From Ostreococcus lucimarinus (Eukaryota): a DNA stretch of 64,000 nucleotides. The stretch lies in assembly GCA_000092065.1 (NCBI GenBank), contig CP000597.1. The stretch is one strand, 5' to 3'. Shown piece by piece: positions 42,901-58,653 of this stretch. The number at the start of each line of letters is the position of its first letter. The first letter of the stretch is position 1. The notes beneath the pieces are model-generated. The model saw only the letters and a program-made list of their open reading frames with translations, did no database searches and was not told the origin of the DNA. Made by a program: the position numbers and the translations under genes.

Positions 42901-45900
42901 TGACCGGCGCGGCCACCGTCGGCACGACGCTCGGCGTGACTGGCGCTACGACGCTCACCGGCGACGTGACGATGAGCAACGACTTGACCGTGAGCGGTGC
43001 GCTTACTGTGACATCTGATGCCGCTGTGAGTTTGACCTCTGCAAGTGGTTCGGACGTGAGCTTGACGAGCGCCGGTACGGGTGGCATCGTGTTGACGTCG
43101 ACGGACGACATCACGCTCGATGCTGCCGATGATGTGACGATCGATGCCGCCGGTGCTTTGTCTTTGGAGCAGGGCGGGACGAGTATTTTGAGCTGGACCG
43201 ACACCGGCGCTGTGACTTTGAACTCCTTAGGCGGGCAGACCCTGAGCGTGTCGAGCCTCAGCTCGGCCGGGAACGCGGGCGCCGTGAGCGTGTCCGGCGG
43301 CACGACGACTGGGACGTCCTCGAACACCGGCGGCGACTTGACGCTGCAATCTGGCGGCGCGCCCGCTGGCAGCGTGAACGGTGACGTTCTGGTGGACTCG
43401 GCCACTGGTCTAGGCACCGCCGGCTCGATCACGCTTCGCCAGGGGGTGGGCGGTGAGCGTGTTTCTGTGGACGCGAACGGCGCCGTGAGTCTGGACACGC
43501 ACTCCGGGCAGGACCTGACGCTGAGCACGGGCGGTAGCGCGGCCGTGACTGTGGACTCGACCGGGCAGGTGGGCATCGGGACGACGACGCCGGGGAAGAC
43601 GCTGGACGTCACCGGGACGGCGCGCGTGAGTGGCGCGACGACGCTGAGTAGCACGCTTGGCGTGACTGGCGCTACGACGCTCGCATCCGTGGGCGTGACC
43701 GGTGCGGCCACCGTCGGCGGGACTTTAGGTGTGACTGGCGCTACGACGCTCGCATCCGTGGGCGTGACCGGCGCGGCCACCGTCGGCACGACGCTCGGCG
43801 TGACTGGCGCTACGACGCTCGCATCCGTGGGCGTGACCGGCGCGGCCACCGTCGGCACGACGCTTGGCGTGACTGGCGCTACGACGCTCGGCGGGACTTT
43901 AGGTGTGACTGGCGCTACGACGCTCGCATCCGTGGGCGTGACCGGCGCGGCCACCGTCGGCACGACGCTCGGCGTGACTGGCGCTACGACGCTCGCATCT
44001 GTGGGCGTGACCGGTGCGGCCACCGTCGGCGGGACTTTAGGTGTGACTGGCGCTACGACGCTCACCGGCGACGTGACGATGAGCAACGACTTGACCGTGA
44101 GCGGTGCGCTTACTGTGACATCTGATGCCGCTGTGAGTTTGACCTCTGCAAGTGGTTCGGACGTGAGCTTGACGAGCGCCGGTACGGGTGGCATCGTGTT
44201 GACGTCGACGGACGACATCACGCTCGATGCTGCCGATGATGTGACGATCGATGCCGCCGGTGCTTTGTCTTTGGAGCAGGGCGGGACGAGTATTTTGAGC
44301 TGGACCGACACCGGCGCTGTGACTTTGAACTCCTTAGGCGGGCAGACCCTGAGCGTGTCGAGCCTCAGCTCGGCCGGGAACGCGGGCGCCGTGAGCGTGT
44401 CCGGCGGCACGACGACTGGGACGTCCTCGAACACCGGCGGCGACTTGACGCTGCAATCTGGCGGCGCGCCCGCTGGCAGCGTGAACGGTGACGTTCTGGT
44501 GGACTCGGCCACTGGTCTAGGCACCGCCGGCTCGATCACGCTTCGCCAGGGGGTGGGCGGTGAGCGTGTTTCTGTGGACGCGAACGGCGCCGTGAGTCTG
44601 GACACGCACTCCGGGCAGGACCTGACGCTGAGCACGGGCGGTAGCGCGGCCGTGACTGTGGACTCGACCGGGCAGGTGGGCATCGGGACGACGACGCCGG
44701 GGAAGACGCTGGACGTCACCGGGACGGCGCGCGTGAGTGGCGCGACGACGCTGAGTAGCACGCTTGACGTGACTGGCGTTACGACGCTCGCATCCGTGGG
44801 CGTGACCGGTGCGGCCACCGTCGGCACGACGCTCGGCGTGACTGGCGCTACGACGCTCGCATCCGTGGGCGTGACCGGTGCGGCCACCGTCGGCGGGACT
44901 TTAGGTGTGACTGGCGCTACGACGCTCGGCACGACGCTCGGCGTGACTGGCGCTACGACGCTCGCATCCGTGGGCGTGACCGGCGCGGCCACCGTCGGCA
45001 CGACGCTCGGCGTGACTGGCGCTACGACGCTCACCGGCGACGTGAGCGTCGGGACTTCCTCGGCTTTGAGTTTTGGTTCTGCAACCCGGCAGATGATCAA
45101 CTTATATGGAACAAACAACGCCATCGGCGTGCAATCGTCCACGATGTATTTTCGTAGTGCTTATAACTTTGCCTTTTTTGAAGGCGGCGTGTACACCAAC
45201 ACAGAGCTCGATCCGGGTTCGGGTGGCACTTTGCGCATGATGATTCAGAAAACCACGGGCAACGTCGGTATCGGGACGGCGAGTCCAGATTATGAACTCG
45301 ACGTGGTAGGCGATATCAACTTTTCTGGGAATCTCTATCAGGGTGGTTCGCTGTTTGCCTCCCCCTGGACGGAGAGCAGCGGTAACGTGTATCGCAGTAG
45401 CGGTAACGTCGGCATCGGGCTGACGAATCCGACCTACAATCTGCACGTTGCTGGAACGGGGCGCGTTAGTACGACGCTATCGGTGGGTCAAGATTTAACC
45501 ATCGACACGGCTGGCGACTTGAACTTTGCGGCGACGCATCGTCAGATGATCAACCTCCGCGTCGGCGCCGAGGGTTTCGGGATCGGGACGCAGATGGACA
45601 CGACGTACTTTCGCTCTCCGGGCCACTTTGCGTTCTACGAAGACGGAACGCACAGCACCACTGACTTGGACGCGAACGGTGGCACCGCGCGTCTGGTGAT
45701 CAGGAGCGGCGGGAAGGTGGGCATCGGGCGGACGAATCCGAGCTATGATCTCGACGTGGTAGGCGATATCAACTTTTCTGGGAATCTCTATCAGGGCGGT
45801 TCTCTGTTCCCGTCCCCCTCCCCCTGGACGGAGAGCGGCAGTAACGTGTATCGTAGTAGCGGTAACGTCGGCATCGGGCTGACGAATCCGAGCTACAAAC

Positions 45901-47045
45901 TGGACGTCACTGGAACAGGACACTTCACGGGCGCGACGACGATCGATGACCAACTCACCGTTGGCGGTAACGTATTGATCCAAAGTACAACCAATAAGAT
46001 TTCGTTTGGCAGCACAGCGCGTCAGTTTATTGAAACGAATAACGGTGGAATCGGAACGCAGTCAAAGACGCTGTATTTTCGTTCACAGGATTTTTTCGGC
46101 TTTTACAAAAATGGCGGTCACAACAGCGCCGATCTGAACCCAGGCGGAAGCGGGACTCTCCTTGTCGCCATTCGCGGTGACATCTCTGGTGCTCGAATGG
46201 CGATTGGATCTTCAGACACAGATAGTGGCTACGCTTTTAAGGTCACCGGGTCGGCGCAAGCGACCGCTGCGCTCGACGTAGGCACGACGCTTAATGTGGC
46301 GTCGTACGCGACAATTCGCGGCGACTTGCGCCTCAATACCGGTACTCAGCAAATAAATTTTGGTACCCAGCACCGTCAGGTTGCTGCGCTCGCGACTGGC
46401 GGCATCGGAACGCAGTCGAACACTGTATACTTTCGTTCACAGGACTTGTTTGGCTTTTATAAAGGTGGCGGCCATAGCTCTACCGCTCTTGATCCAGGCG
46501 GAAGCGGGACTCTCCTTGTCACCATTCGCGGTGACGTCTCTGGTCCTCGATTAGGAGTCGGAGTCACGAATCCCTCCTACGCTCTCGAAGTCAATGGAGC
46601 GGCGCACGTGTCTGGCGCACTGAGCAAGGGAAGTGGCTCTTTCAAGATCGATCATCCACTTCCTGAAATGAAAGACACGCATAATTTGTATCACTCCTTC
46701 ATCGAGGGACCACGGGCGGATCTCATCTACAGAGGCAAGGTTCGTTTGCAGAACGGTAGGGCGATGATAGACATCGATGCCGCATCAAACATGACGACAG
46801 GGACATTTGAAGCACTCAATCGCGACGTGCAGTCGTTCACGTCAAATGAAAGCGACTGGGACCCCGTCCGAGGTTCTGTCGTGGGCAACGTCCTCACCAT
46901 TGAGTGTCAAAACCCCACTTCGACGGCACTCATCAGCTGGCTTGTCATCGGTGAGCGTCACGATCAGCACATGTACGACACAGATTGGACCGATGAAAAC
47001 GGTCGTGTCGTTCCGGAACAATTGAAAAAGAGTGCGACGACGTGA
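36951..47045 (+). CDS. Giant (3,364 aa) repeat protein: PPC-like domain, nested tandem repeats, tail-fibre-like C-terminal region
   Basis: ATG at 36951. Arg/Asp leader followed by an Ala-rich hydrophobic anchor (about 37240-37300). PPC-like segment YKYYKVNV...LELTTSNGDANLYVSRS...GYYYVSVYG at about 37371-37630. Repeat array at 38730-45040. Four divergent repeats containing GNVGIG...P.Y.LDV.GDINFSGNLYQGG at 45040-46560. C-terminal FKIDHPLPEMKDTHNLYHSFIEGPRADLIYRGK. Confidence 0.85.
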   Translation: MRLDDGDDARRRDARAVRARATRTPTRAATTRGDVVDAAAADDDIDDDAVARPDATRRRRRDDDATTTTRDDETTRAREGASGRRRARERGRATRRRRRLGTAAAAAATAALAATVERVGVDASTALTKGVARNGFVSSSGYKYYKVNVACVEAAQPLTLELTTSNGDANLYVSRSAQPTTSSYEQRSVNVGNALDSVTITSPVNGYYYVSVYGALSSTYKLRALTTMFTGKHPCTGFRITDSDVSSVGSGSGNQFILQEALTASAAAGFTADVSVDGDVILGDAYTDSVTAKGELKLGVTDSTYYAITRQSPSAPSSNPGGALSIVGANATYQGGSVKILGGTGGSGAGGDVVIEAGSASGGNGGDLKLRGGTSNSGTGGDVVIDAGDSTTQASSYEGIIHIGPTSASFVRVGESSNKQVQTDIFGDLTVHGNLLTTNDVVYANSYTSYVQVSTSQDGMFHQEVRAPKITGLDAEDITGTPTSTLTLDAGMRGSQQHVVIAPSEATAVYIGSSTSTIPVSIRQGANAGDVRVHADGSGALSVTSAAGQDLTLASGDDVVVTTAASKTLALKQDSTSILSWDAAGAVTVNSVSGQDLTLSTGGSAAVTVDSTGQVGIGTTTPGKTLDVTGTARVSGATTLSSTLDVTGATTLASVGVTGAATVGGTLGVTGATTLASVGVTGAATVGGTLGVTGATTLASVGVTGAATVGTTLGVTGATTLTGDVTMSNDLTVSGALTVTSDAAVSLTSASGSDVSLTSAGTGGIVLTSTDDITLDAADDVTIDAAGALSLEQGGTSILSWTDTGAVTLNSLGGQTLSVSSLSSAGNAGAVSVSGGTTTGTSSNTGGDLTLQSGGAPAGSVNGDVLVDSATGLGTAGSITLRQGVGGERVSVDANGAVSLDTHSGQDLTLSTGGSAAVTVDSTGQVGIGTTTPGKTLDVTGTARVSGATTLSSTLGVTGATTLASVGVTGAATVGGTLGVTGATTLASVGVTGAATVGTTLGVTGATTLTGDVTMSNDLTVSGALTVTSDAAVSLTSASGSDVSLTSAGTGGIVLTSTDDITLDAADDVTIDAAGALSLEQGGTSILSWTDTGAVTLNSLGGQTLSVSSLSSAGNAGAVSVSGGTTTGTSSNTGGDLTLQSGGAPAGSVNGDVLVDSATGLGTAGSITLRQGVGGERVSVDANGAVSLDTHSGQDLTLSTGGSAAVTVDSTGQVGIGTTTPGKTLDVTGTARVSGATTLSSTLGVTGATTLASVGVTGAATVGGTLGVTGATTLGGTLGVTGATTLASVGVTGAATVGTTLGVTGATTLGGTLGVTGATTLASVGVTGAATVGTTLGVTGATTLASVGVTGAATVGGTLGVTGATTLTGDVTMSNDLTVSGALTVTSDAAVSLTSASGSDVSLTSAGTGGIVLTSTDDITLDAADDVTIDAAGALSLEQGGTSILSWTDTGAVTLNSLGGQTLSVSSLSSAGNAGAVSVSGGTTTGTSSNTGGDLTLQSGGAPAGSVNGDVLVDSATGLGTAGSITLRQGVGGERVSVDANGAVSLDTHSGQDLTLSTGGSAAVTVDSTGQVGIGTTTPGKTLDVTGTARVSGATTLSSTLGVTGATTLASVGVTGAATVGGTLGVTGATTLGGTLGVTGATTLASVGVTGAATVGGTLGVTGATTLGTTLGVTGATTLASVGVTGAATVGTTLGVTGATTLTGDVTMSNDLTVSGALTVTSDAAVSLTSASGSDVSLTSAGTGGIVLTSTDDITLDAADDVTIDAAGALSLEQGGTSILSWTDTGAVTLNSLGGQTLSVSSLSSAGNAGAVSVSGGTTTGTSSNTGGDLTLQSGGAPAGSVNGDVLVDSATGLGTAGSITLRQGVGGERVSVDANGAVSLDTHSGQDLTLSTGGSAAVTVDSTGQVGIGTTTPGKTLDVTGTARVSGATTLSSTLGVTGATTLGGTLGVTGATTLASVGVTGAATVGTTLGVTGATTLASVGVTGAATVGTTLGVTGATTLTGDVTMSNDLTVSGALTVTSDAAVSLTSASGSDVSLTSAGTGGIVLTSTDDITLDAADDVTIDAAGALSLEQGGTSILSWTDTGAVTLNSLGGQTLSVSSLSSAGNAGAVSVSGGTTTGTSSNTGGDLTLQSGGAPAGSVNGDVLVDSATGLGTAGSITLRQGVGGERVSVDANGAVSLDTHSGQDLTLSTGGSAAVTVDSTGQVGIGTTTPGKTLDVTGTARVSGATTLSSTLGVTGATTLASVGVTGAATVGGTLGVTGATTLASVGVTGAATVGTTLGVTGATTLASVGVTGAATVGTTLGVTGATTLGGTLGVTGATTLASVGVTGAATVGTTLGVTGATTLASVGVTGAATVGGTLGVTGATTLTGDVTMSNDLTVSGALTVTSDAAVSLTSASGSDVSLTSAGTGGIVLTSTDDITLDAADDVTIDAAGALSLEQGGTSILSWTDTGAVTLNSLGGQTLSVSSLSSAGNAGAVSVSGGTTTGTSSNTGGDLTLQSGGAPAGSVNGDVLVDSATGLGTAGSITLRQGVGGERVSVDANGAVSLDTHSGQDLTLSTGGSAAVTVDSTGQVGIGTTTPGKTLDVTGTARVSGATTLSSTLDVTGVTTLASVGVTGAATVGTTLGVTGATTLASVGVTGAATVGGTLGVTGATTLGTTLGVTGATTLASVGVTGAATVGTTLGVTGATTLTGDVSVGTSSALSFGSATRQMINLYGTNNAIGVQSSTMYFRSAYNFAFFEGGVYTNTELDPGSGGTLRMMIQKTTGNVGIGTASPDYELDVVGDINFSGNLYQGGSLFASPWTESSGNVYRSSGNVGIGLTNPTYNLHVAGTGRVSTTLSVGQDLTIDTAGDLNFAATHRQMINLRVGAEGFGIGTQMDTTYFRSPGHFAFYEDGTHSTTDLDANGGTARLVIRSGGKVGIGRTNPSYDLDVVGDINFSGNLYQGGSLFPSPSPWTESGSNVYRSSGNVGIGLTNPSYKLDVTGTGHFTGATTIDDQLTVGGNVLIQSTTNKISFGSTARQFIETNNGGIGTQSKTLYFRSQDFFGFYKNGGHNSADLNPGGSGTLLVAIRGDISGARMAIGSSDTDSGYAFKVTGSAQATAALDVGTTLNVASYATIRGDLRLNTGTQQINFGTQHRQVAALATGGIGTQSNTVYFRSQDLFGFYKGGGHSSTALDPGGSGTLLVTIRGDVSGPRLGVGVTNPSYALEVNGAAHVSGALSKGSGSFKIDHPLPEMKDTHNLYHSFIEGPRADLIYRGKVRLQNGRAMIDIDAASNMTTGTFEALNRDVQSFTSNESDWDPVRGSVVGNVLTIECQNPTSTALISWLVIGERHDQHMYDTDWTDENGRVVPEQLKKSATT
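38730..45040 (+). repeat. Near-identical nested tandem array inside the giant CDS (6 full units plus 1 partial)
   Basis: The QDLTLSTGGSAAVTVDSTGQVGIGTTTPGKTLDVTG landmark recurs at 38730, 39663, 40527, 41601, 42606, 43506 and 44613. Unit lengths are 933, 864, 1074, 1005, 900 and 1107 bp. All length differences are sums of 69-bp (ASVGVTGAATVGGTLGVTGATTL) and 36-bp (GGTLGVTGATTL) sub-repeats. Units are almost identical at nucleotide level by eye. Confidence 0.9.
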
Positions 47046-47163: not shown

Positions 47164-50100
47164 CTATAGTCTAAAAGATAGCTTTGCGAACTCTCCGTCG
47201 GACACCGCGTCGCTCGTCTGCCCCCCCGTCGCGCCGTCATCGCTCGTTTCGCTTCCGAGCAACGAAGACGCCTTTCGCCGGCGCTCAGGCGAATCGTCCG
47301 CGTCCCGAAAATCGTAGAGATAATCGCTATGCCTTGCATAATGCACCCGCGTCGCTTCTTCTCCTGAGGCATTAAATCTATACGACTCGGGAGAAAATGA
47401 TGACTGAGCGAATCTGTCCTCATCTGACGCGCTCTCTTCGGCGTCGTACGATTCACCCATGGAATACGCCAGTTCGCTCGGTTCACGTTCACTCAGTCCA
47501 TCATTCGGTGTATTCAGCCCTGGTTGGCGTCCACTAGATGGGTCTTTCATCTCAAACGCGTAATGATCGTCATCCGAGTCAGCATCCGTGGAAGATGCGT
47601 AAGCACGCCGCGACTCAAACCTGTTCTCACCAAAAAATGCGGCGCCGCGTAGAGGTTCCGGTGGTTCCAGTTCTAGTTCGGGTTCCGGTTCCGGTCGCAC
47701 TTCCCGTTCTGCTGTCACATCCGTCTCTGGTGCGAGATCTAAGATGGACTGGTTCCGTCCGGGCACGACGTTACCCTGCTCTCCATTCGTCTCGAATGCG
47801 GCGAGCGTCGCGACGTGATCGCGAGCGACACTCCCGCCTCGGTGACCCTTTACGACGGCACGTTCTTCCTGAGCGCTGTGGGTGAATCTCTCAATCACGC
47901 TACGCGCTTTGGTTGATGCGTCAAATAACGCGCCACCAGGTTCGCGCGACCGCACGACTTTCTTTTTAATTCTGATTGCGAGTCGTCGAAGCTGAATCGT
48001 GTGCTTGATAATTTCCACCACCTCCTCGGTGTCGTACAGTCCCTCGTCGTCCGCTGATACTGAGAATCTTTCGAGAATGATCGCCACAAATAAATTTCCG
48101 AGCAAAAATATAGAGATGATGACAAATGATATAAAGTATGGGACCGCAGCAGCGTTATACGAGCAGTCGATGCTGGATTCCAACATGAACGGTGCTTCTG
48201 TGCGTAAGCACGCCTCTGTTTGGTACACCTCGCCGAACGTGCCAACCCAGCCACCCGTGTACACCCCGATGAGAGATGAGCAAGCTGTGGTGAATCGTTG
48301 AAAGTTCGAGTACTTCGATAGCACGCCGCCTTCGAAAGGGCCGGTTTCATCGCCGAAAAGTGAAACACCCATGATGGCGTACGAAAAGATCGCGAGGGAC
48401 GATAGCGCGGCGACGTTTCCGACACCCGGAAGACTCATTATGAACGTGTTGAAGAGCGACCGCAGCCCAGAATGTGCCTTTACCAGTTTCAGTAATCTCA
48501 ACAATCTCACCAATTGTAGGTAATTCATGACACCGCCTGCGTTTAGACTTTGTCCGATCGCCTGTACGATGGAAACTACGACGACGAAGGCGTCCAGCCA
48601 ATTCCAATAATTCCTAAAGTAACGCGTCCGACCTTGCGCCATGAGCAAAAGCATCATTTCCAAAGAGTACACCGCAGTGAACGCGATAGACATGCAGAAG
48701 TGAGCATATTCTGCTGAACTGCTCATATTCGCCGTTTGTGTCAAGAGCTCGATTAAATTTGCGCACACTACCACGAGGATGAAGTACGCAAACTTTTTCG
48801 GCTTTGAGATATGATGCGCAAGTAGACGAGCTCGCGACCAAAGGCTTTTGCCTGGCGGCGGTACGATTCTGCGCCATGCCTCTGAATCTTGCGTGCTTGC
48901 ACGTAGTATAGCCTGCTGCCAGCGCCGCTGCGCTGGGGTGACAAACGTAAGCTTGTCTTGCGAAGCCATCTTGTTAAAGTTGTCCACGAGCGCCGTGACT
49001 AATAAATTCAACCAAAAGAAATTCCCGATGGCGACCGTCAATACAAAATAAAGAGCGGCGGCTTGGTTGTTATCTGTTTTCAAGCCGGTCCCGACGCCTG
49101 TGGTATCCATGGCGACCCACATGATTTCTTGCCAGTCATCGCCGGCGTGCAGTAGAAACGTCGATAAAAGTGCAGCGCCAAAGTTATCAAAGTTGAACTT
49201 TGCATTTCGCCACTTTCCTCCCGCTGCCTCGCACGTTGCTTGTGTAGTGTAGCTACTCGCATCATTCACCACTCGACACGACCAAAACTTACCCATAAAG
49301 AGCTCCATACCAAGAAGTGCGAAAATTGACATGGAAACTAAACCGATGAAGCACACGTAACTTACGGCTGGGATCGCGGAAAGTACAGTGTTAACGACAA
49401 GGCGGAGACCAGGGAAACGACGAATGGATCGAAGCGGGCGCATGATTCGCAAAAGTCGAAGTGCTCGCACGCTTCCGCTGCCATCGTCTGCCGCGGTGAG
49501 CGAAATGATTGATGTAAAGACGACGACGCCATCGAGAATGTTGAAGGAATTCTTCAGATACGCAGTCGGTCGCTCGTACAACCCGTAGGCGAATAACTTT
49601 AATACCATCTCTGCGCCAAATAAAGTCGTAAAAGTAATATCAACCGCGGTGTACACTTTTGCAGTATGAGATCCCGCCACTGGCCAAGTCTTTGTTTCTG
49701 TCGCGAGTAACACGCTACCAGCGATGATCATGCATAGAATGGCGTTCTCAAAGAGGTTGTGTGAAACAATTTTGTGCACCAAGTATTTGTATCTCTCGAC
49801 GGGAATCGTATCGTCGTACAGCGGTATAAAGTCGCCATCTTTTGTGACGATCACGCCCGGTATCTCTGACGACTGTTTCTTCACGCGTGAGGAGATGGAT
49901 CTCGTGATTGTCGCCGCCCAAGGACCGTGCGCGTCAAAGACGACATGCTCGTCTTCCTTACTCTTATCCTCGATGCTTAAACGATTGTTTTGCGCCGCAA
50001 ATCTTTTCGTCATACTGTGCCTAATAGAACTTTTGATAGAGCTAGTCACCCCGAACGCTTTGTCTTGATAGTCTTGATACTCCACAAACTTTGGCGTCAG

Positions 50101-52740
50101 GCGAAGTTGAGCCTCCTTAAGAGCGTGCTCGCTTATGGTCAGTACTTGCGCCGGTGTCTTCAACTTGAATCCGATCGAATCTAGAAATATCCTGCACGCA
50201 GCAACATCTTCGACTGTTTGCTTTCTCAAGCGGTCCTTCTTGACCTGCGCGAGCTTGCCACCGTGATCCGGAGGCTTTAATGCTGCGAGTACGGATGAAA
50301 TCGCCGTAGGCGTACTGCCATCGGCCGTCTTTAAACTCTTTTTCGCTTGCGATTGTATTGCTTGTTCGGCACATTCTTGTTTCCTGGCCGCATCCAAAAG
50401 ATTAAACTTGAAGCTCGTATCACCTCTGTCTTTTATCGAGTCGCCGCGCTTGCTGCGCGCATGTTTTCGCAACGTACTCCTGAATGCGTTCGCCGCGAAT
50501 GTCATGTTTTGCAGTACCCGTTTCGCTTTCCGATTCGGATCTAGCACGATATCACCCGCACGTTCGATGGCAGACCTCAGTCTGCCATCTTCAAGCTCGT
50601 CTTGCGCGCGTTGCTCTTCCTCGATGTCGACGAGCGAACACGAGTCGATTAAAATCCCGAGCACGAGCGACAAGATGACGGTGGATAAAAAAATCCACGC
50701 GATGGTGTACAGAACGACGACGTCGTTACCGGACGCTACCATAGTATTCCACGCGACAACAAACGAGTCCTCTCCCGTGGCGACAACAAACAGCGTCAAC
50801 GCGCTGCGCAAAAAGTTCCTAAACGTCAAGCGCTCGTCGTCGAGCGCTCCTAACCCGGTGAAGAGTTGAAATCCGTAAATGGCAAATATGACTTGAAATA
50901 ATAGCCAAACGATCAAAAACGGCCACATGTCTTGGAAACCGAGATACGCGCTTGAAATGATCTTCCTAAATTCTCTGTTGTTTCTGATGACGCGAAACGT
51001 TCGCAGCGCCCTTCCTATTCGCAAGAGACGAATGAATGACGCGCTCACGCCTTGACTCGTCACCGCCGTACTGATGACACCGGTAAACACGATCAACCCA
51101 TCGACAACGTTTTGCTTTGAGCTCCAGTATCCTCTAAAGCCGTATCCGATGTGTTTAATCGCCATTTCTACAGCAAAACATCCGAGGAAAACATATTCTA
51201 AAATTTCAGAAGCCTTGACGAATCCCGACGACGCCGCGTGATGCTGCGACATCATCAAAATTGTATTAAATATAATAACCACCGTGATGCTGGCATCAAA
51301 ACGTCGGTCTTCAGCGATTTTCCAGCACATTTGACGCGTTGCATCAGACACAAAGAGACGAAAAAAACGCTCACCATTCTTGTGAAAGTTGTTTCCGCGT
51401 CCATCGCTTTCGCCGCGACTGAGCGCCGTCTCGTCGTCCAAGCTTTCTAGTACTTTCTCTGTCTTCGCCTGGCTCGAGTCTTCGGGCGCTTCGTCTTCGT
51501 CGCGAATACCCATTTGCGTCAACGTCGCGCAAATGACGGATGTAAAGAGTTCCATCATAAAAAACCCACCCATCAGAACGACGACGATGAACCAAAGAAA
51601 CGCCGCGGGATAGCCAACCGCGTACGCCGTGGGATTGAGCAACTCATTCCAACCGTCGATGGTCATTCCATTTAACGCGACAATTGAACTTCTCCCAGCG
51701 TTCGCAAAGCTCAGAAATCCGTCATACGGCTCGATGCCCGAATCACAGCACCACTCCGTCGCGCTTCTGTTTGTGTTCCATTCCTTGTAGTTGCACGTGC
51801 TGTCGTACTCATTTGGGTACGTTCCTTCGGCGCCCAACGCGAGAGCGCCCATCCACGCGCCGACCAAGTTCGCACACGTCTCACTCCCCGTCCCCACGGG
51901 AAACACGTAGCTCGCGTTCGTCGCTTGATCCGGCGGCGTCCCGTACCACCGTCCCGTCATCCGACCGCCGAACATCGTCACGCCGCTCACCGCGAAGAAT
52001 ATTAAAAACCACAGCAAAAACAACAGCACGTCCCCCAACAACGGCAGCGCTCGAGCGATCGTTTTCATCGCCAACCTCGCGCTGCGGTACTTCGCGAACA
52101 ACTTGAACGCGTACAACGACCGCAACAGTCGCACCGTCACCACCTGCGAGCCTCCGATCGGCATCAACATCAACGACAGCACGACGAGCGTGAAATCGAA
52201 CCGATGCCAATTCGTCGTCAAGTACGCCCCCTCGCCCAGCGCGAATCCCAGCGCCACGCTCTTCACCAGCGCCTCCGCCGCGAACACCCCCGCGACGACG
52301 TAATTCGCCGCCGTCGCCGCCGTCGCCTCCGCCGCGCCATCCCTCGCCGGTTTCACCACCGCGACGATCGCGCTCGAGCCCACGACGCACATCGCGACGA
52401 CGGCGTGAAACGCGCGCGCCTCGATCGCGCGCGCGCAGAACCGTCGCGTCGCGCCGTCGCGCCGGAACATCAACAGCGACGCGTCGTTCGCGCGCCATCG
52501 CTCGAGCGTCCTCGCGACGCGTCGCGTCACCGCGCCTCCCGCGTCGTCGTCGCCGTCGCGCGCGTCGTCGTCGTCGTCGTCGCGCGCGCGCGCGCCGTCG
52601 CGCGCGTCGCGCGCGTCGCCGTCGTCGTCGTCGTCGTCGCTCGTCGAGCTCGCGCGCGCGCTGTCGTCCACCTTCCGCGCGCGCGCCTCGCGCGCGTCGC
52701 GCGCGCGCGACACGAACGCGTCCGTGAACTGAAAGTTCAT
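47164..52740 (-). CDS. Four-domain voltage-gated cation channel (Cav/Nav superfamily)
   Basis: ATG at 52740. Four 6-TM repeats with Arg/Lys-every-third S4 helices: VRLLRSLYAFKLFAKYR, IRLLRIGRALRTFRVIR, VRALRLLRIMRPLRSIRR, LQLVRLLRLLKLVKAHSGLR. Pore loops: MTIDGWNEL, ATGEDSF, HAGDDWQEI, YTGGWVG. Confidence 0.9.
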   Translation of the reverse strand: MNFQFTDAFVSRARDAREARARKVDDSARASSTSDDDDDDGDARDARDGARARDDDDDDARDGDDDAGGAVTRRVARTLERWRANDASLLMFRRDGATRRFCARAIEARAFHAVVAMCVVGSSAIVAVVKPARDGAAEATAATAANYVVAGVFAAEALVKSVALGFALGEGAYLTTNWHRFDFTLVVLSLMLMPIGGSQVVTVRLLRSLYAFKLFAKYRSARLAMKTIARALPLLGDVLLFLLWFLIFFAVSGVTMFGGRMTGRWYGTPPDQATNASYVFPVGTGSETCANLVGAWMGALALGAEGTYPNEYDSTCNYKEWNTNRSATEWCCDSGIEPYDGFLSFANAGRSSIVALNGMTIDGWNELLNPTAYAVGYPAAFLWFIVVVLMGGFFMMELFTSVICATLTQMGIRDEDEAPEDSSQAKTEKVLESLDDETALSRGESDGRGNNFHKNGERFFRLFVSDATRQMCWKIAEDRRFDASITVVIIFNTILMMSQHHAASSGFVKASEILEYVFLGCFAVEMAIKHIGYGFRGYWSSKQNVVDGLIVFTGVISTAVTSQGVSASFIRLLRIGRALRTFRVIRNNREFRKIISSAYLGFQDMWPFLIVWLLFQVIFAIYGFQLFTGLGALDDERLTFRNFLRSALTLFVVATGEDSFVVAWNTMVASGNDVVVLYTIAWIFLSTVILSLVLGILIDSCSLVDIEEEQRAQDELEDGRLRSAIERAGDIVLDPNRKAKRVLQNMTFAANAFRSTLRKHARSKRGDSIKDRGDTSFKFNLLDAARKQECAEQAIQSQAKKSLKTADGSTPTAISSVLAALKPPDHGGKLAQVKKDRLRKQTVEDVAACRIFLDSIGFKLKTPAQVLTISEHALKEAQLRLTPKFVEYQDYQDKAFGVTSSIKSSIRHSMTKRFAAQNNRLSIEDKSKEDEHVVFDAHGPWAATITRSISSRVKKQSSEIPGVIVTKDGDFIPLYDDTIPVERYKYLVHKIVSHNLFENAILCMIIAGSVLLATETKTWPVAGSHTAKVYTAVDITFTTLFGAEMVLKLFAYGLYERPTAYLKNSFNILDGVVVFTSIISLTAADDGSGSVRALRLLRIMRPLRSIRRFPGLRLVVNTVLSAIPAVSYVCFIGLVSMSIFALLGMELFMGKFWSCRVVNDASSYTTQATCEAAGGKWRNAKFNFDNFGAALLSTFLLHAGDDWQEIMWVAMDTTGVGTGLKTDNNQAAALYFVLTVAIGNFFWLNLLVTALVDNFNKMASQDKLTFVTPAQRRWQQAILRASTQDSEAWRRIVPPPGKSLWSRARLLAHHISKPKKFAYFILVVVCANLIELLTQTANMSSSAEYAHFCMSIAFTAVYSLEMMLLLMAQGRTRYFRNYWNWLDAFVVVVSIVQAIGQSLNAGGVMNYLQLVRLLRLLKLVKAHSGLRSLFNTFIMSLPGVGNVAALSSLAIFSYAIMGVSLFGDETGPFEGGVLSKYSNFQRFTTACSSLIGVYTGGWVGTFGEVYQTEACLRTEAPFMLESSIDCSYNAAAVPYFISFVIISIFLLGNLFVAIILERFSVSADDEGLYDTEEVVEIIKHTIQLRRLAIRIKKKVVRSREPGGALFDASTKARSVIERFTHSAQEERAVVKGHRGGSVARDHVATLAAFETNGEQGNVVPGRNQSILDLAPETDVTAEREVRPEPEPELELEPPEPLRGAAFFGENRFESRRAYASSTDADSDDDHYAFEMKDPSSGRQPGLNTPNDGLSEREPSELAYSMGESYDAEESASDEDRFAQSSFSPESYRFNASGEEATRVHYARHSDYLYDFRDADDSPERRRKASSLLGSETSDDGATGGQTSDAVSDGEFAKLSFRL

Positions 52741-52976
52741 CGAATCCCGGCGCGTCGCGCGCCGCGCGTCGCGCGCGCGCGCCGCTGTGCCGACGAATCG
52801 AATCGAAACCGCATTCGCATTCGCGAATCGCGCGCGTCAGAGCGCCGCGCGACACGCCGCTCGACGCGACGCGCCGCGTCGCGACGCGCGACGCCGCGCT
52901 CGACGCGCGCGCGCGCGCGCGACGCGCTGAAAACGACGCGACGCGCTGAAAACGGCGCGTTCGATCGCGCGCGGGC

Positions 52977-53468
52977 ATGTCGCGGAAACACCTCACGGAC
53001 GAGGAGCTCGCGAGCGCGTGGCCGTACCTCACGCGCGCGCAGGTGCAGGAGTTCAAGGAGGCGTTCGATATATTCGACGTCGACGGCGGCGGGACGATCA
53101 CGGCGGAGGAGCTCGGGGAGGTGATGAAGTCGCTCGGGCAGAAACCGACGAGGGCGCAGCTGGAGGCGATGGTGCGGGAGATCGACGCGGACGGGGACGG
53201 GGCGATCGATTTTCCAGAGTTTTTGACGATGATGCTGCGGAAGATGAACGAGGGTGATCCGGAGAGGGAGCTCAGGGACGTGTTCACGGTGTTCGATAAG
53301 GATCAGAGCGGGACGATTAGCGCGGATGAGCTGAAGAGCGTGATGAAGGTCATCGGGGAGAAACTGACGGAGCAAGAGATCGAGGACGCGATTCGGTTGG
53401 CGGATACCACGGGAGACGGAGAGGTTGATTACGATGAGTTCATCGCGTTCGTGCTGTCGTCGAATTAA
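52977..53468 (+). CDS. Calmodulin-like protein with four EF-hands and a 20-aa N-terminal extension
   Basis: ATG at 52977. EF loops [48 protein letters not shown]. Colinear with calmodulin (EFKEAF.IFD...TI...ELG.VM.SLGQ.PT.A.L..M..E.DADG.G.IDFPEFL.MM). Confidence 0.9.
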
Positions 53469-53633: not shown

Positions 53634-54038
53634 CTACGGCGCGTCACCACCACCTCGTCGCCGTCGGTCCTCGCGAAACGCCTCGACGCTCCGCTCGTAC
53701 TCGCGAGGAACGACGTACAAGAACAGGAACCACCACGCCAGGACGGCGGCGCCGACGATGGTGGTGGATAGCGTTCCGAACCAGCCGGCGACGCGCTCGT
53801 CGAGGTGGAGCACGTTCACTGGCGTCGCGGTGGCGAGCACGCCAGTGGCCACGATTGAGTACGGCTGGCACCACGCGGGTTTCGTCTTCCACATATCTGT
53901 CGGCAGATCGTCGTCGCCCTGGGACGACGCGCGAGCAGGGATGGAAACGATACGACGGTGCGCGCGCGTTCCCGGCGCACGCGCGCGGCAACGAAGCCCC
54001 GCTCGCGTGGGCGCCGGTGGGCGCGCGACGCCGCGCAT
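53634..54038 (-). CDS. Small putative plastid-targeted membrane protein, family not recognised
   Basis: ATG at 54038. Arg/Ala/Pro-rich leader, then WKTKPAWCQPYSIVATGV and a TM segment LSTTIVGAAVLAWWFLFLYVV. Confidence 0.45.
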   Translation of the reverse strand: MRGVARPPAPTRAGLRCRARAPGTRAHRRIVSIPARASSQGDDDLPTDMWKTKPAWCQPYSIVATGVLATATPVNVLHLDERVAGWFGTLSTTIVGAAVLAWWFLFLYVVPREYERSVEAFREDRRRRGGGDAP

Positions 54039-54101: not shown

Positions 54102-55676
54102 TCAATTCGAGCGTCGTTGCTGCTTGCTTCTATTTTCCTGCGGGTCGTTGGCTCCTTTGTCCCCTTTATCCCCATCGCGGTGATGACGCTCGCCGCCGAA
54201 CCGCCGCTCGCCGTCGCCGCGCCCTCCTCTGCCCGCGCGCCCGCCGTCGCCGCGCCCGCCCCTGCCGCCGCGCCCGCCGTCGCCGCGCCCGCCGCCTTGG
54301 CGAAACTTACTCGGCTGGCTCAGTTTGTAATTACCATCCCTCCACATATCGCTTCGATGAATTTCGCCGATGCCTTCGAATATGATTTCTCGAAGCTCGA
54401 CGAAGTTTCGCTCGACGAGCGGTAGCGGATACTTTTCGGCGCCTTCGAGCGCATTCTCTAGCACGAAAGCTGCAGCACCGGAGGCGATCGCGAGAGCTTC
54501 TTCGGCCGAAAACTTGAAACAAATATTCCGCACGGTGTCCGCGATGTGCGGCGGTAAACTGCTCGGCTCAAAACGCGCGGCGCGAACCAACTGACCGGGC
54601 GGCAACGGCGGCGGCGCTTGGTCTCGCTCTCGCTTATGACCCGTAATTTTTGCATCAGCATTCGCCGCCGCGACGGCGGCGTACGTCGTCACCGGTGGCG
54701 GTGGTGGCGCTCCCTTGGTCGTTTGCAGCGACGGCGGCGGCGCCGCGCCCGCTTCCCAGTCCAAAGGCGTGTCGCCGGCGTTGCGCACGACGTCTTCAAA
54801 CGGCGCCCGCAGCGCGGCGTAATCTGGGGTTTGCCCATACTCCAACGTCGCGATCGCGCGTGCGAAAGTTTCTATGGCTGTCGGGCACCCGTGTTTCGGG
54901 CACAACAACGCCGGATTCTTCACGCATTTCTTCTTTTCGCGCTCGACGTTTTGCTTGCTCATCTTTTCTTCGCCCGCCTTCCAGGGCAAAACACCCTCGT
55001 GTGCTTCGACCAAGACGTACAAAGCGCTAAACAAGTCGTCACGCGCGCTCTGTTCCTTGTTTTCGTGCGCGTACACGCTCGCGTACGTCGTCGTCCCTCG
55101 AAACGTCGCGTCGTCCCGCTCCGGCAACACGTTTCCGTCGTCGTCGGTGAACTTGCGCGCCAAACCGAAATCGATCAAATACAACCGCTTCATCCCCTCT
55201 TTACCGTTCCCCACGCACACGTTCCCTGGTTTAATATCTCTGTGCACGTATCCCGCGCCGTGCATGCTCTCCAGCGCGTCCAGCATCGCGATCGCGATCG
55301 CGCACGTCGTCCTCGGCCCGAACCGTCCGCCCCGCGCGCGACTTCGCAAATCCGCCAAATTCTCCCCCACCAGTTCCATCGCCAGGAACGGCTTCCCCTC
55401 GTGCGACGATTCCAGCAGTAACTCCGCGAAGTGTTCCTTCCCCGCCATCGCTCGCATCACCCGCGCCTCTCGCGCGCTCGTCCTGTGTTCGCTCTCCACC
55501 TTGACCGCGACGCGCGCGCCGTCCCGCGTCGCGTCGTTCGCCGCGTACACCTCCGCGAACTGTCCTCGTCCCAGCTTCGGCGCCGACGCCACCGTGAACC
55601 GTCCGTCCGCGCCCAATCGCGCGCCCGGTTTCAGCAGATTGTGCGGCTGCGCGAACTGCGTCGTCGATTTGCTCAT
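54102..55676 (-). CDS. Ser/Thr protein kinase, casein kinase 1 / TTBK-like, with RGG-rich tail
   Basis: ATG at 55676. Kinase motifs LGRGQFAEVY, VAVKVE, YVHRDIKPGN, LIDFGLARKF, FRGTTTYAS. C-terminal GGGRGDGGRGGRGGRGDGGRAGRGGRG. Confidence 0.85.
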   Translation of the reverse strand: MSKSTTQFAQPHNLLKPGARLGADGRFTVASAPKLGRGQFAEVYAANDATRDGARVAVKVESEHRTSAREARVMRAMAGKEHFAELLLESSHEGKPFLAMELVGENLADLRSRARGGRFGPRTTCAIAIAMLDALESMHGAGYVHRDIKPGNVCVGNGKEGMKRLYLIDFGLARKFTDDDGNVLPERDDATFRGTTTYASVYAHENKEQSARDDLFSALYVLVEAHEGVLPWKAGEEKMSKQNVEREKKKCVKNPALLCPKHGCPTAIETFARAIATLEYGQTPDYAALRAPFEDVVRNAGDTPLDWEAGAAPPPSLQTTKGAPPPPPVTTYAAVAAANADAKITGHKRERDQAPPPLPPGQLVRAARFEPSSLPPHIADTVRNICFKFSAEEALAIASGAAAFVLENALEGAEKYPLPLVERNFVELREIIFEGIGEIHRSDMWRDGNYKLSQPSKFRQGGGRGDGGRGGRGGRGDGGRAGRGGRGDGERRFGGERHHRDGDKGDKGANDPQENRSKQQRRSN

Positions 55677-56101
55677 CGCGACGCGAATCGCTCGACCGTC
55701 GGCGATCCCGTCCCGTCGCGCCCCGTCGCGTCGCGCCCGCGTCCCGCGTCGCGTCGCGTCGCGCGCGTCGCGCGTCCGCGTTCGCTCGCGCGTCGCGCGT
55801 CGCTCGCGCGGGCGTCGCTCGCGCGGGCGTCGGATTCTGTCGTCACTCCGCGCCGCTCGGTCCGACCGTCATGAGCGACAATCCCGCGATGACGATCGTC
55901 GTCGTCTGCGTCGCGGTCACGGTGACGTTCCTCGCCGCGTGCGTCGCGCTGTTCGCGCGCGCCGAGCGCGCGCGACCGACGCCGAGGCCGAGGAAGAGGC
56001 TGAGCGCGAAGAAGCGCGCGCGCGAGCTCAAGCGACGCTCGACGCGCGAGATCGGGTGACGCGCGCGCGAAGAGCGACGACGCATGGTCGATATCGATCG
56101 A

Positions 56102-58379: not shown

Positions 58380-58653
58380 ATGCGCGAGCGCCGCGCGTCG
58401 ACGCGAAGCGACGACGACGACGACGACGCGTGCGGCGCGAAGGCGAGCGCGGGCGACGCGGTGACGGACGCGGAAACGGCGCCGACGCGCGAAGATTCGG
58501 ATTCGGCGCGCGACGGCGCGACGACGACGCGCGACGCGCGAGCGCGCGACGACGCGCGCGACGACGACGGCGACGACGACGGCGAGGTCGCGGACGCGCG
58601 GACGCGGAAACGGCGACGCGCGGACGCGCGGGAGGGGCGGGAGGCGAGACGAC

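What the first reader, a model, noticed from the sequence alone, without database searches (positions are those of the whole stretch)
52741..52976. The voltage-gated channel and a calmodulin-like gene share a 236-bp bidirectional promoter
The channel starts at 52740 (-) and the four-EF-hand calmodulin-like gene starts at 52977 (+). Cav and Nav channels are classically regulated by calmodulin bound to their C-terminal tails.

The channel tail contains a basic amphipathic, IQ-like segment TIQLRRLAIRIKKKV (47956-48000). Co-regulation of a channel with a dedicated Ca2+ sensor from one promoter would form a compact excitability module. Head-to-head pairing is common in this window, however, so the adjacency could be coincidental.
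Basis: inference. Interest (0 to 1): 0.5.

Follow-up and report, generated by a model that had tools for sequence, protein, structure and literature searches.

The report
Ostreococcus channel and calmodulin-like gene pair
In the tiny green alga Ostreococcus lucimarinus a four-domain voltage-gated channel gene and a calmodulin-like gene really do sit head-to-head 236 bp apart, and the pair is kept in all Ostreococcus-type relatives sampled, but the evidence points to an ordinary inherited neighbourhood rather than a proven channel-plus-sensor module.

Summary
The channel ORF is 47164-52740 (-), the CaM-like ORF is 52977-53468 (+), the spacer is 236 bp, and TIQLRRLAIRIKKKV lies at 47956-48000. 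The window is Ostreococcus lucimarinus; the channel is the published 'Ostrel3' and the CaM-like protein is XP_001422109.

The divergent pair is present in every Ostreococcus-type contig examined (at least 6 lineages, channel identity 50-62%). There it is part of a roughly 10-gene collinear block. In at least 5 other GC-rich relatives the CaM-like orthologue (76-80% identical) keeps its DUF6737/kinase neighbours but faces PIG-Y/EML genes, with no channel nearby. The pairing is therefore a derived, clade-limited rearrangement.

The spacers share no specific motif and range from 178 to 764 bp. The channel has no canonical IQ or EF-hand-like C-terminal domain by Pfam, PDB homology or a published table. 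The 'IQ-like' segment is a strongly conserved basic helix directly after IVS6, and it is also conserved in homologues that are not linked to the CaM-like gene.

The CaM-like protein belongs to an ancient, highly conserved green-algal family. That pattern suggests a multi-target sensor.

Verdict: a real shared divergent promoter region, with functional coupling plausible but unproven. Interest is modest.

The parts
47164..52740 (-). Four-domain voltage-gated cation channel gene (1858 aa). It is 'Ostrel3', XP_001422214.1, of Ostreococcus lucimarinus.
   Evidence: ORF. Four Ion_trans repeats, E 5e-171. The S4 sequences match Ostrel3 in PMC5824947 Table S2. The best solved-structure matches are Cav3 T-type, then Nav and Cav1/2. 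The selectivity filter is inferred as D362/E657/D1201/G1496 from alignments to solved channels.
47944..48030 (-). Proximal C-terminal helix (residues 1571-1599, TEEVVEIIKHTIQLRRLAIRIKKKVVRSR), directly after IVS6.
   Evidence: AF2 predicts a helix here with pLDDT 60-74; the rest of the tail is below 50. It is nearly invariant among orthologues that are 51-62% identical overall. It is also conserved in unlinked homologues P0011/P0012.
47956..48000 (-).
   Evidence: Coordinates verified. The overlapping 18-residue windows starting at 1580-1581 have net charge +7 and hydrophobic moment 0.54, and the region fits 1-8-14, 1-5-10 and 1-14 spacings. It matches no IQ consensus.
52741..52976 (.). 236-bp divergent intergenic spacer (76% GC, CpG and CGCGAC-type low complexity). 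It holds both promoters and both 5' UTRs.
   Evidence: Sequence and composition. Repeats are compositional. No Rfam hit. The only word shared by orthologous spacers is CGTCGCGC, which occurs 126 times in the window.
52918..52955 (+). 19-nt tandem duplication (CGCGACGCGCTGAAAACGA/G x2), 22-59 nt upstream of the CaM-like ATG.
   Evidence: It is unique in the window and was not seen in the spacers of other species. Its function is unknown.
52977..53468 (+). Calmodulin-like gene (163 aa, four EF-hands, 16-aa N-terminal extension); XP_001422109.1 / A4S9Q9.
   Evidence: ORF, Pfam, PDB matches. It is 100% identical to an O. lucimarinus predicted protein and 61% identical to human CaM. EF1 has Gly at loop position 5.
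53634..54038 (-). DUF6737 gene. It is the neighbour of the CaM-like gene in all clades examined except the L013/L014 type.
   Evidence: Pfam E 1.3e-12. Adjacent to the CaM-like orthologue both in channel-linked and in most channel-unlinked loci.
54102..55676 (-). Protein kinase gene, part of the conserved block on the CaM-like side.
   Evidence: Pfam Pkinase. Conserved next to DUF6737 in both groups of loci.

Best explanation
The 236-bp spacer is a typical short, CpG-rich divergent intergenic region of the compact Ostreococcus lucimarinus genome. It separates the start codons of a four-domain voltage-gated cation channel (Ostrel3, D/E/D/G pore) and a member of an ancient green-algal calmodulin-like family.

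The juxtaposition arose by a local rearrangement in the Ostreococcus-type lineage. Relative to the DUF6737-kinase block, the CaM-like gene is inverted, and a channel-bearing block replaces the PIG-Y/EML block. Since then the pair has been inherited passively as part of a collinear block of about 10 genes.

Both core promoters must fit inside, or overlap, 236 bp. Some transcriptional coupling through a shared open-chromatin region is therefore likely (inferred, not shown). No dedicated shared cis-element is conserved.

The CaM-like protein most likely acts as a general, multi-target Ca2+ sensor. The conserved basic helix after IVS6 is a feature of this channel clade whether or not the CaM-like gene is next door. 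It may bind CaM or CML proteins, or acidic lipids.

On this reading the adjacency is not evidence of a dedicated module, although it does not exclude an interaction.
For: - Gene models and domains.
- Organism and identities.
- The pair is present only in GC 55-62% Ostreococcus-type contigs, where Pentapeptide-DAO-PseudoU-channel-CaM-DUF6737-kinase-(S1FA)-FG-GAP-KH/WW is collinear.
- In at least 5 other lineages the order is FG-GAP, kinase, DUF6737, CaM-like, PIG-Y, EML with no channel, or the CaM-like gene lies beside a dynein heavy chain.
- The CaM-like gene has the opposite orientation relative to the DUF6737/kinase block in the two groups.
- Spacers are 178-292 bp, but 764 bp in L002, with GC of 54-76%. 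They share no word except CGTCGCGC, which is ubiquitous (126 copies in the window).
- Base rate: about half of O. tauri transcripts lie in bidirectional pairs (PMC4035068). There are at least 4 comparable pairs in this window.
- No canonical CaM-binding C-terminal domain.
- The post-S6 helix is conserved in unlinked homologues P0011/P0012.
- The CaM-like protein is 85-91% identical where the channel is 50-62% identical. It is still 72-78% identical in Mesostigma and Klebsormidium, with the same N-terminal extension.
Against: - Chance adjacency of these particular gene classes is a priori rare. With 4 CaM/CML genes (PMC6471108, PMC8508799), 3 four-domain channels and about 7800 genes, P is about 0.003 for any adjacency and about 0.0008 for head-to-head. 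This is a post-hoc calculation.
- The pair has survived in every Ostreococcus-type lineage sampled, including O. lucimarinus, where a 10-kb gene was inserted at the channel's other end.
- The CaM-like gene appears to have been flipped individually, so that its 5' end faces the channel.
- The tail helix is the most basic amphipathic cytosolic stretch in the channel. Its 18-residue windows reach net charge +7 and hydrophobic moment 0.54, it fits 1-8-14 and 1-5-10 spacings, and it is nearly invariant.
- CaM regulation of four-domain channels is ancestral and widespread (PMC5824947).
Confidence: 0.6

Rival explanations
1. Dedicated excitability module. The CaM-like protein is an auxiliary Ca2+-sensing subunit of this channel and binds the basic helix after IVS6. 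The head-to-head arrangement was selected in the Ostreococcus lineage so that one bidirectional promoter delivers both in matched amounts.
For: - The prior probability of chance adjacency is low, about 0.003 or less.
- The pair is retained in all Ostreococcus-type lineages sampled, down to 50% channel identity.
- The CaM-like gene is inverted so that its 5' end meets the channel's 5' end.
- The tail helix is invariant, basic, amphipathic and predicted helical.
- With three acidic pore residues (D/E/D/G), Ca2+ entry and feedback are plausible (inference).
- The genome has only 4 CaM/CML genes to serve 3 such channels.
Against: - Retention is no greater than that of the flanking genes.
- The pair is absent from at least 5 other lineages that keep the CaM-like gene.
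- The same helix is conserved in homologues whose upstream neighbour is an ABC transporter.
- The CaM-like protein evolves far more slowly than the channel, and it occurs in streptophyte algae. This is typical of a hub sensor, not a dedicated subunit.
- There is no conserved cis-element, and spacer length varies 4-fold.
- There is no IQ, pre-IQ or EF-hand-like C-terminal domain.
Confidence: 0.27
2. Transcriptional coupling only. The two genes are co-regulated because they share one nucleosome-free CpG-rich region, but their products do not interact. Any co-expression is a by-product of genome compaction.
For: The 236 bp must hold both promoters. Divergent pairs with spacers of 165-236 bp are the norm in the window and in O. 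tauri. Only generic GC-rich words are shared between orthologous spacers.
Against: No expression data were available, so even the co-regulation is untested. This reading overlaps with the best explanation and differs only in asserting co-expression.
Confidence: 0.1

Closest known systems
Calmodulin bound to the C-terminal EF-hand-like/pre-IQ/IQ module of animal Cav1/Cav2 and Nav1 channels
   Same: A four-domain voltage-gated channel and a four-EF-hand CaM-type protein. The channel has a conserved basic helix in its cytosolic C-terminus that could serve as a docking site. Ca2+ feedback on a cation channel is the proposed logic.
   Different: - This channel has no GPHH or Ca_chan_IQ domain and no IQ consensus.
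- Published analysis lists pre-IQ and IQ as 'Not identified'.
- Its helix sits about 6 residues after IVS6, where the first helix of the EF-hand-like domain lies in P0014 and in Nav. The IQ lies about 130 residues further on (the Nav/Cav positions are from my own knowledge).
- In animals the CaM genes are not linked to the channel genes.
- The partner here would be a 61%-identical CML, not CaM.
Cav3 (T-type) channels, the closest solved structures
   Same: They are the best sequence matches for domains III and IV (E 3e-70 and 1.7e-32). Neither has an IQ-type C-terminal domain, and both have Asp in the domain III pore position.
   Different: The pore here is D/E/D/G rather than E/E/D/D. The channel carries a Nav-like TFVT motif in the III-IV linker. 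CaM binding to the Cav3 gating brake is recalled from the literature only and was not tested here.
Generic bidirectional (head-to-head) gene pairs of compact genomes, such as the 2288 pairs reported for O. tauri
   Same: Divergent orientation, a spacer well under 1 kb, GC/CpG-rich sequence and no TATA-like landmarks. This is the commonest arrangement in the window.
   Different: The two products belong to classes with a known functional relationship. That is unusual for a random pair, with P about 0.003 post hoc.
Plant and algal calmodulin-like proteins (CMLs)
   Same: Four EF-hands and no other domain, 61% identity to CaM, and a CaM-like central helix ([10 protein letters not shown]).
   Different: It belongs to a distinct, deeply conserved green-algal subfamily. 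The subfamily has the N-terminal extension MS[RK][17 protein letters not shown] and Gly at EF1 loop position 5, and it runs from Ostreococcus to Mesostigma and Klebsormidium at 72-78% identity. No characterised member was found in the literature searches.

Membership tests
Bidirectional (divergent) gene pair sharing a promoter region | Head-to-head orientation with start sites less than 1 kb apart and nothing between them | tested here: met
   ATGs at 52740 (-) and 52977 (+), 236 bp apart. No Rfam family in the window. Only spurious GC-rich ORFs overlap the spacer.
Bidirectional (divergent) gene pair sharing a promoter region | Shared, conserved cis-regulatory element(s) in the spacer | tested here: not met
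   Six orthologous spacers share only CGTCGCGC-type words, which occur 126 times in the window. The 19-nt duplication is species-specific.
Bidirectional (divergent) gene pair sharing a promoter region | Correlated expression of the two genes | not testable with these tools
   No expression data are accessible. Literature searches found none for these genes.
[quoted passage not shown] | Four homologous 6-TM Ion_trans repeats in one polypeptide with R/K-rich S4 segments | tested here: met
   Four Ion_trans stretches. S4 segments are listed for Ostrel3 in PMC5824947 Table S2. All four domains align to Cav3, Nav and Cav1 structures.
[quoted passage not shown] | One selectivity residue per P-loop (EEEE, EEDD or DEKA types) | tested here: met
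   D362, E657, D1201 and G1496 align to the filter positions of Cav1.1, Cav2.2, Cav3.2 and Nav1.5. D/E/D/G is a non-standard combination, and its selectivity is unknown.
Cav/Nav C-terminal calmodulin-binding module | EF-hand-like domain (Pfam GPHH) after IVS6 | tested here: not met
   No GPHH hit at E<=0.01. Homology to solved channels ends at about residue 1566-1579. AF2 shows helices only up to about residue 1634, then disorder.
Cav/Nav C-terminal calmodulin-binding module | IQ motif [FILV]Qxxx[RK]Gxxx[RK] (and a pre-IQ) in the tail | tested here: not met
   No strict or loose IQ match at residue 1582 (IQLRRL has Leu at position 6) or elsewhere in the tail. 'Not identified' for Ostrel3 in PMC5824947 Table S3.
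Cav/Nav C-terminal calmodulin-binding module | Physical binding of CaM or a CaM-like protein | not testable with these tools
   This needs pull-down or ITC, or a complex prediction.
Canonical calmodulin | About 148 aa and at least 85-90% identical across eukaryotes, with four canonical EF loops | tested here: not met
   61% identity to human CaM over 139 aa. It has a 16-aa N-terminal extension. The EF1 loop is [12 protein letters not shown], with Gly at position 5.
Calmodulin-like proteins (CML) | Mostly EF-hands (usually four), no other domain, recognisable similarity to CaM | tested here: met
   Four EF-hand hits cover residues 25-159. Calmodulins are the top matches among solved structures. 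The literature counts 1-2 CaM and 2-3 CML genes in O. lucimarinus.

The most novel reading that the evidence does not exclude
In the Ostreococcus lineage a gene rearrangement hard-wired a Ca2+ sensor to a channel. A member of an ancient green-algal CaM-like family became the obligate auxiliary subunit of a D/E/D/G four-domain channel. It docks on a non-IQ basic helix immediately after IVS6, and the two genes are kept head-to-head so that a single 180-290-bp bidirectional promoter sets their stoichiometry. This would be a genomically encoded channel-plus-calmodulin unit in the smallest free-living eukaryote.
Probability: 0.2. Interest if true: 0.6.

Novelty: new member of a known kind. Interest (0 to 1): 0.3.

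Why it matters
If the coupling were real, it would give a minimal, genetically tractable system for studying how CaM-type sensors regulate four-domain channels without the canonical IQ domain. O. tauri supports homologous recombination (my own knowledge). It would also be a rare eukaryotic case of gene order selected for a channel-subunit pair.

As it stands, the value is mostly cautionary and descriptive. Conservation of a gene pair within a genus with strong microsynteny is not evidence of function. The work also defines a clade-specific post-S6 basic helix and an uncharacterised, deeply conserved green-algal CaM-like family. Both are worth testing.

Tried and rejected
- **IQ motif.** Strict and loose IQ regular expressions over the channel and 15 homologues gave no match at the proposed site.
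- **Promoter motifs.** A shared k-mer search across six orthologous spacers found only generic CGTCGCGC-type words. The bacterial-type promoter/terminator scan is irrelevant for a eukaryote and found nothing. Rfam found nothing in the window.
- **Uninformative context.** The contig for the distant homologue P0013 ends 268 bp upstream of the gene.
- **Naming the unlinked lineages.** S4 strings of P0011-13 do not match the Micromonas entries in the published table, and no NCBI names are attached to those clusters. I therefore describe them only as GC-rich prasinophyte-like contigs carrying dynein and EML genes. No Bathycoccus-like (about 48% GC) locus was recovered, so the state in the sister genus is unknown.
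- **Structure.** AF2 of residues 1440-1858 had a low overall confidence (mean pLDDT 47), so I use only the local helix call. A complex prediction of the CaM-like protein with the tail peptide could not be submitted, because the tool takes single window chains only.
- **Expression.** Literature searches for expression or co-expression of these genes found nothing usable.
- **Canonical CaM.** I could not check directly whether O. lucimarinus also has a canonical CaM. I rely on published counts of 1-2 CaM and 2-3 CML genes.

Full report
**1. The observation**

The ORF list gives a 1858-aa ORF at 47164..52740 (-) and a 163-aa ORF at 52977..53468 (+), both starting with ATG. The sequence between them, 52741-52976, is 236 bp and 76% GC.

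Pfam finds four Ion_trans repeats in the long protein (E 5e-171). In the short one, four EF-hands fill residues 25-159. The short protein's best matches among solved structures are calmodulins (E about 1e-53). It is 61% identical to human calmodulin over 139 residues.

Both start codons are supported by conservation:
- The CaM-like N-terminus MS[RK]KHLTDEEL is shared by all orthologues.
- Seven of 10 channel orthologues have an aligned M[ND][FL] start.

The peptide TIQLRRLAIRIKKKV is residues 1581-1595, encoded at 48000-47956.

**2. Identity of the genes**

The CaM-like protein is 100% identical to XP_001422109.1 / A4S9Q9, a 'predicted protein' of Ostreococcus lucimarinus CCE9901. The window is therefore from that genome.

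The channel's four S4 segments match 'Ostrel3' (XP_001422214.1) in the survey of four-domain channels by Pozdnyakov et al. 2018 (PMC5824947 Table S2). That survey lists three such channels for O. lucimarinus.

I aligned the P-loops to solved channels to read the selectivity positions:

| Domain | Residue here | Aligned to |
|---|---|---|
| I | D362 | Glu of Cav1.1 |
| II | E657 | Glu of Cav2.2 |
| III | D1201 | Asp of Cav3.2 |
| IV | G1496 | Ala of Nav1.5 (a gap against Cav3.2) |

The pore is therefore D/E/D/G, and its selectivity is unknown. With three acidic residues, Ca2+ permeation is plausible, but that is inference. The closest solved relatives are T-type Cav3 channels.

**3. Is the pair conserved?**

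I fetched the genomic context of channel homologues and of CaM-like orthologues. I also ran one metagenome scan with a CaM-like family alignment, followed by tblastn with block markers. Two clear groups emerge.

*Group A* has GC of 55-62% and is Ostreococcus-type.
- It comprises the window (also L021, L022, L041), L001/L023, L002/L003/L024, L004-6/L028, L010/L025/L026, L011/L012 and L029.
- In every case the CaM-like gene (79-100% identical) lies divergently next to the channel (50-62% identical).
- The flanks are collinear too: Pentapeptide-DAO-PseudoU synthase-channel-CaM-like-DUF6737-kinase-(S1FA)-FG-GAP protein-KH/WW protein. I verified this order in the window by tblastn.
- The only local difference in O. 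lucimarinus is a 3364-aa repeat-protein gene inserted between PseudoU synthase and the channel's 3' end.

*Group B* has GC of 56-67% and comprises L015, L017/18, L019, L020, L030-L040 and L043.
- The CaM-like orthologue is 76-80% identical.
- The FG-GAP, kinase, DUF6737, CaM-like part is kept, but the other neighbour is PIG-Y followed by an EML-like gene.
- No channel lies within 10 kb.

Three further points bear on the history:
- In a separate arrangement (L013/L014) the CaM-like orthologue lies tail-to-tail with a dynein heavy chain.
- Relative to the DUF6737/kinase block, the CaM-like gene points the opposite way in A and in B.
- The nearest channel homologue outside group A (P0011, 41% identity over domains III-IV) has an ABC transporter upstream and no EF-hand gene nearby.

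I conclude that the head-to-head pairing is a derived rearrangement of one clade. Within that clade its retention is no better than that of every neighbouring adjacency.

**4. The spacer as a promoter**

With 236 bp between the ATGs, both core promoters and both 5' UTRs must lie in or overlap this stretch. 'Bidirectional promoter region' is a fair geometric description.

I found nothing more specific:
- Orthologous spacers are 178-292 bp, but 764 bp in L002 (with microsatellites), and their GC ranges from 54 to 76%.
- The only word shared by all six is CGTCGCGC. It occurs 126 times in the window against 57 expected, and it marks gene 5' ends generally.
- The repeats in the spacer are compositional.
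- A 19-nt tandem duplication at 52918-52955 is unique to this species.
- No Rfam family matches anywhere in the window.

Divergent pairs with 165-236-bp spacers are the norm here. O. tauri is reported to have 2288 bidirectional pairs involving 3884 transcripts (PMC4035068). Co-expression could not be tested.

**5. The 'IQ-like' segment**

It matches no IQ consensus. IQLRRL has Leu where Arg or Lys is required, and there is no Gly at position 7.

The channel lacks the canonical calmodulin-binding C-terminal module by three tests:
- Pfam finds no GPHH or Ca_chan_IQ domain.
- Homology to all solved Cav/Nav chains stops at residue 1566-1579.
- The published table lists pre-IQ and IQ as 'Not identified' for Ostrel3, while the paralogue Ostrel2 has an IQ.

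Positionally, the segment lies where a distant homologue with a canonical C-terminal domain (P0014) has the first helix of the EF-hand-like domain. It does not lie where the IQ would be.

The segment is nevertheless notable:
- It is nearly invariant (VIKHTIQLR[RK]LAL.IK.K) among orthologues only 51-62% identical overall.
- AF2 predicts a 29-residue helix at 1571-1599 with pLDDT 60-74, directly after IVS6. Most of the remaining tail is disordered (overall confidence is low).
- It is the most basic amphipathic cytosolic stretch of the protein. Its 18-residue windows reach net charge +7 and hydrophobic moment 0.54, and it fits the permissive 1-8-14, 1-5-10 and 1-14 spacings.

The same helix is conserved in P0011/P0012 (VITTVQLRKIAKLIKSKITRKR), whose genes are not linked to the CaM-like gene. 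It is therefore a trait of the channel clade and not of the linked state. Binding of CaM or a CML is possible, and so is binding of acidic lipids. Nothing here discriminates between these.

**6. The CaM-like protein**

It belongs to a distinct and very conserved family with two hallmarks:
- The N-terminal extension MS[RK][17 protein letters not shown].
- Gly at position 5 of the EF1 loop (DxDGGG).

These hallmarks are shared from Ostreococcus to Mesostigma (78%), although the Klebsormidium member (72%) has the canonical Asp at that EF1 position; a Pyramimonas transcript is 62% identical.

Within group A it is 85-91% identical, apart from about 80% in the L029 lineage, where the channel is 50-62% identical. 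Such slow evolution, and its existence long before and far outside the linked arrangement, fit a multi-target hub sensor better than a dedicated subunit of a fast-evolving channel (inference).

**7. How surprising is the adjacency?**

Published counts give O. lucimarinus four CaM/CML genes in all (2+2 in PMC6471108, 1+3 in PMC8508799), three four-domain channels and about 7800 genes. The chance that any CaM/CML is an immediate neighbour of any such channel is about 0.003. For head-to-head only it is about 0.0008.

It is post hoc, however.

**8. Verdict**

| Explanation | Probability |
|---|---|
| Ordinary divergent pair created by a lineage-specific rearrangement and inherited with its block; likely some passive transcriptional coupling, no demonstrated functional coupling | about 0.6 |
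| Dedicated channel-plus-sensor module | about 0.25-0.3 |
| Transcriptional coupling only, products do not interact | about 0.1 |

The dedicated-module reading needs expression, binding and functional tests. In novelty terms this is a new member of a known kind, namely a bidirectional gene pair. Two descriptive by-products are worth follow-up: the clade-specific post-S6 basic helix and the uncharacterised green-algal CaM-like family.

Noticed in passing
window 36951-47045 (+): A 3364-aa ORF made largely of long near-identical repeats, with an N-terminal PPC (pre-peptidase C-terminal) domain. It lies between PseudoU synthase and the channel only in O. lucimarinus. The other Ostreococcus-type contigs have PseudoU synthase directly beside the channel's 3' end, so this looks like a species-specific 10-kb insertion.
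   Followed up: partly
window 13276-19374 (+): A 2032-aa multidomain ORF combining rhodanese, sulfotransferase, AMP-binding, phosphopantetheine-binding, NAD_binding_4 reductase and zinc alcohol dehydrogenase domains. This is an unusual NRPS-like or carboxylate-reductase-type fusion.
   Followed up: no
window 52977-53468; alignments A2/A3: The CaM-like protein defines a deeply conserved green-algal subfamily (Ostreococcus to Mesostigma, Klebsormidium, Pyramimonas). Its hallmarks are an N-terminal extension with invariant Trp (EWPYLTR; the adjacent Pro is invariant within the subfamily) and Gly at EF1 loop position 5; the Klebsormidium member has Asp at that EF1 position. No characterised member turned up in the literature searches.
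   Followed up: partly
window 47164-52740 (-), residues 362/657/1201/1496 and the C-terminus: The inferred pore is D/E/D/G, a non-standard filter. The extreme C-terminus (...[DK]LSFRL) is conserved across orthologues even though the tail before it is variable and predicted disordered.
   Followed up: partly
whole window, e.g. 52400-52980, 55700-55800, 58500-58560: Gene 5' ends and intergenic spacers are 70-76% GC and packed with CGTCGCGC and (CG)n words (126 copies against 57 expected), while gene bodies are about 50% GC. As a result many N-termini are low-complexity Asp/Arg/Ala runs, and many spurious long ORFs appear on both strands.
   Followed up: partly
L013 3676-14164; L014 2691-13179: In one GC-rich lineage the CaM-like orthologue lies tail-to-tail, 59-69 bp away, with a dynein heavy-chain gene. 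This is a third, different neighbourhood for this gene.
   Followed up: no
L015, L019, L020, L031, L033-L036, L038, L039, L043 versus window 53634-54038: The DUF6737 gene stays next to the CaM-like gene in both the channel-linked and most channel-unlinked lineages, though its orientation varies. This adjacency is older and more widespread than the channel adjacency. In group B, L015 and L019 also carry a second EF-hand gene of 231-252 aa beside it.
   Followed up: partly
window 52918-52955 (+): A perfect-but-one 19-nt tandem duplication (CGCGACGCGCTGAAAACGA/G) lies 22-59 nt upstream of the CaM-like ATG. It is unique in the window and absent from the spacers of the other species.
   Followed up: partly
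L002 7237-8000 (and L003, L024): In one Ostreococcus-type lineage the channel/CaM-like spacer has grown to 764 bp and contains (GA)n, (TA)n and (TTCG)n microsatellites. A gene caller placed a 172-aa ORF in it. This shows that spacer length is not tightly constrained.
   Followed up: no
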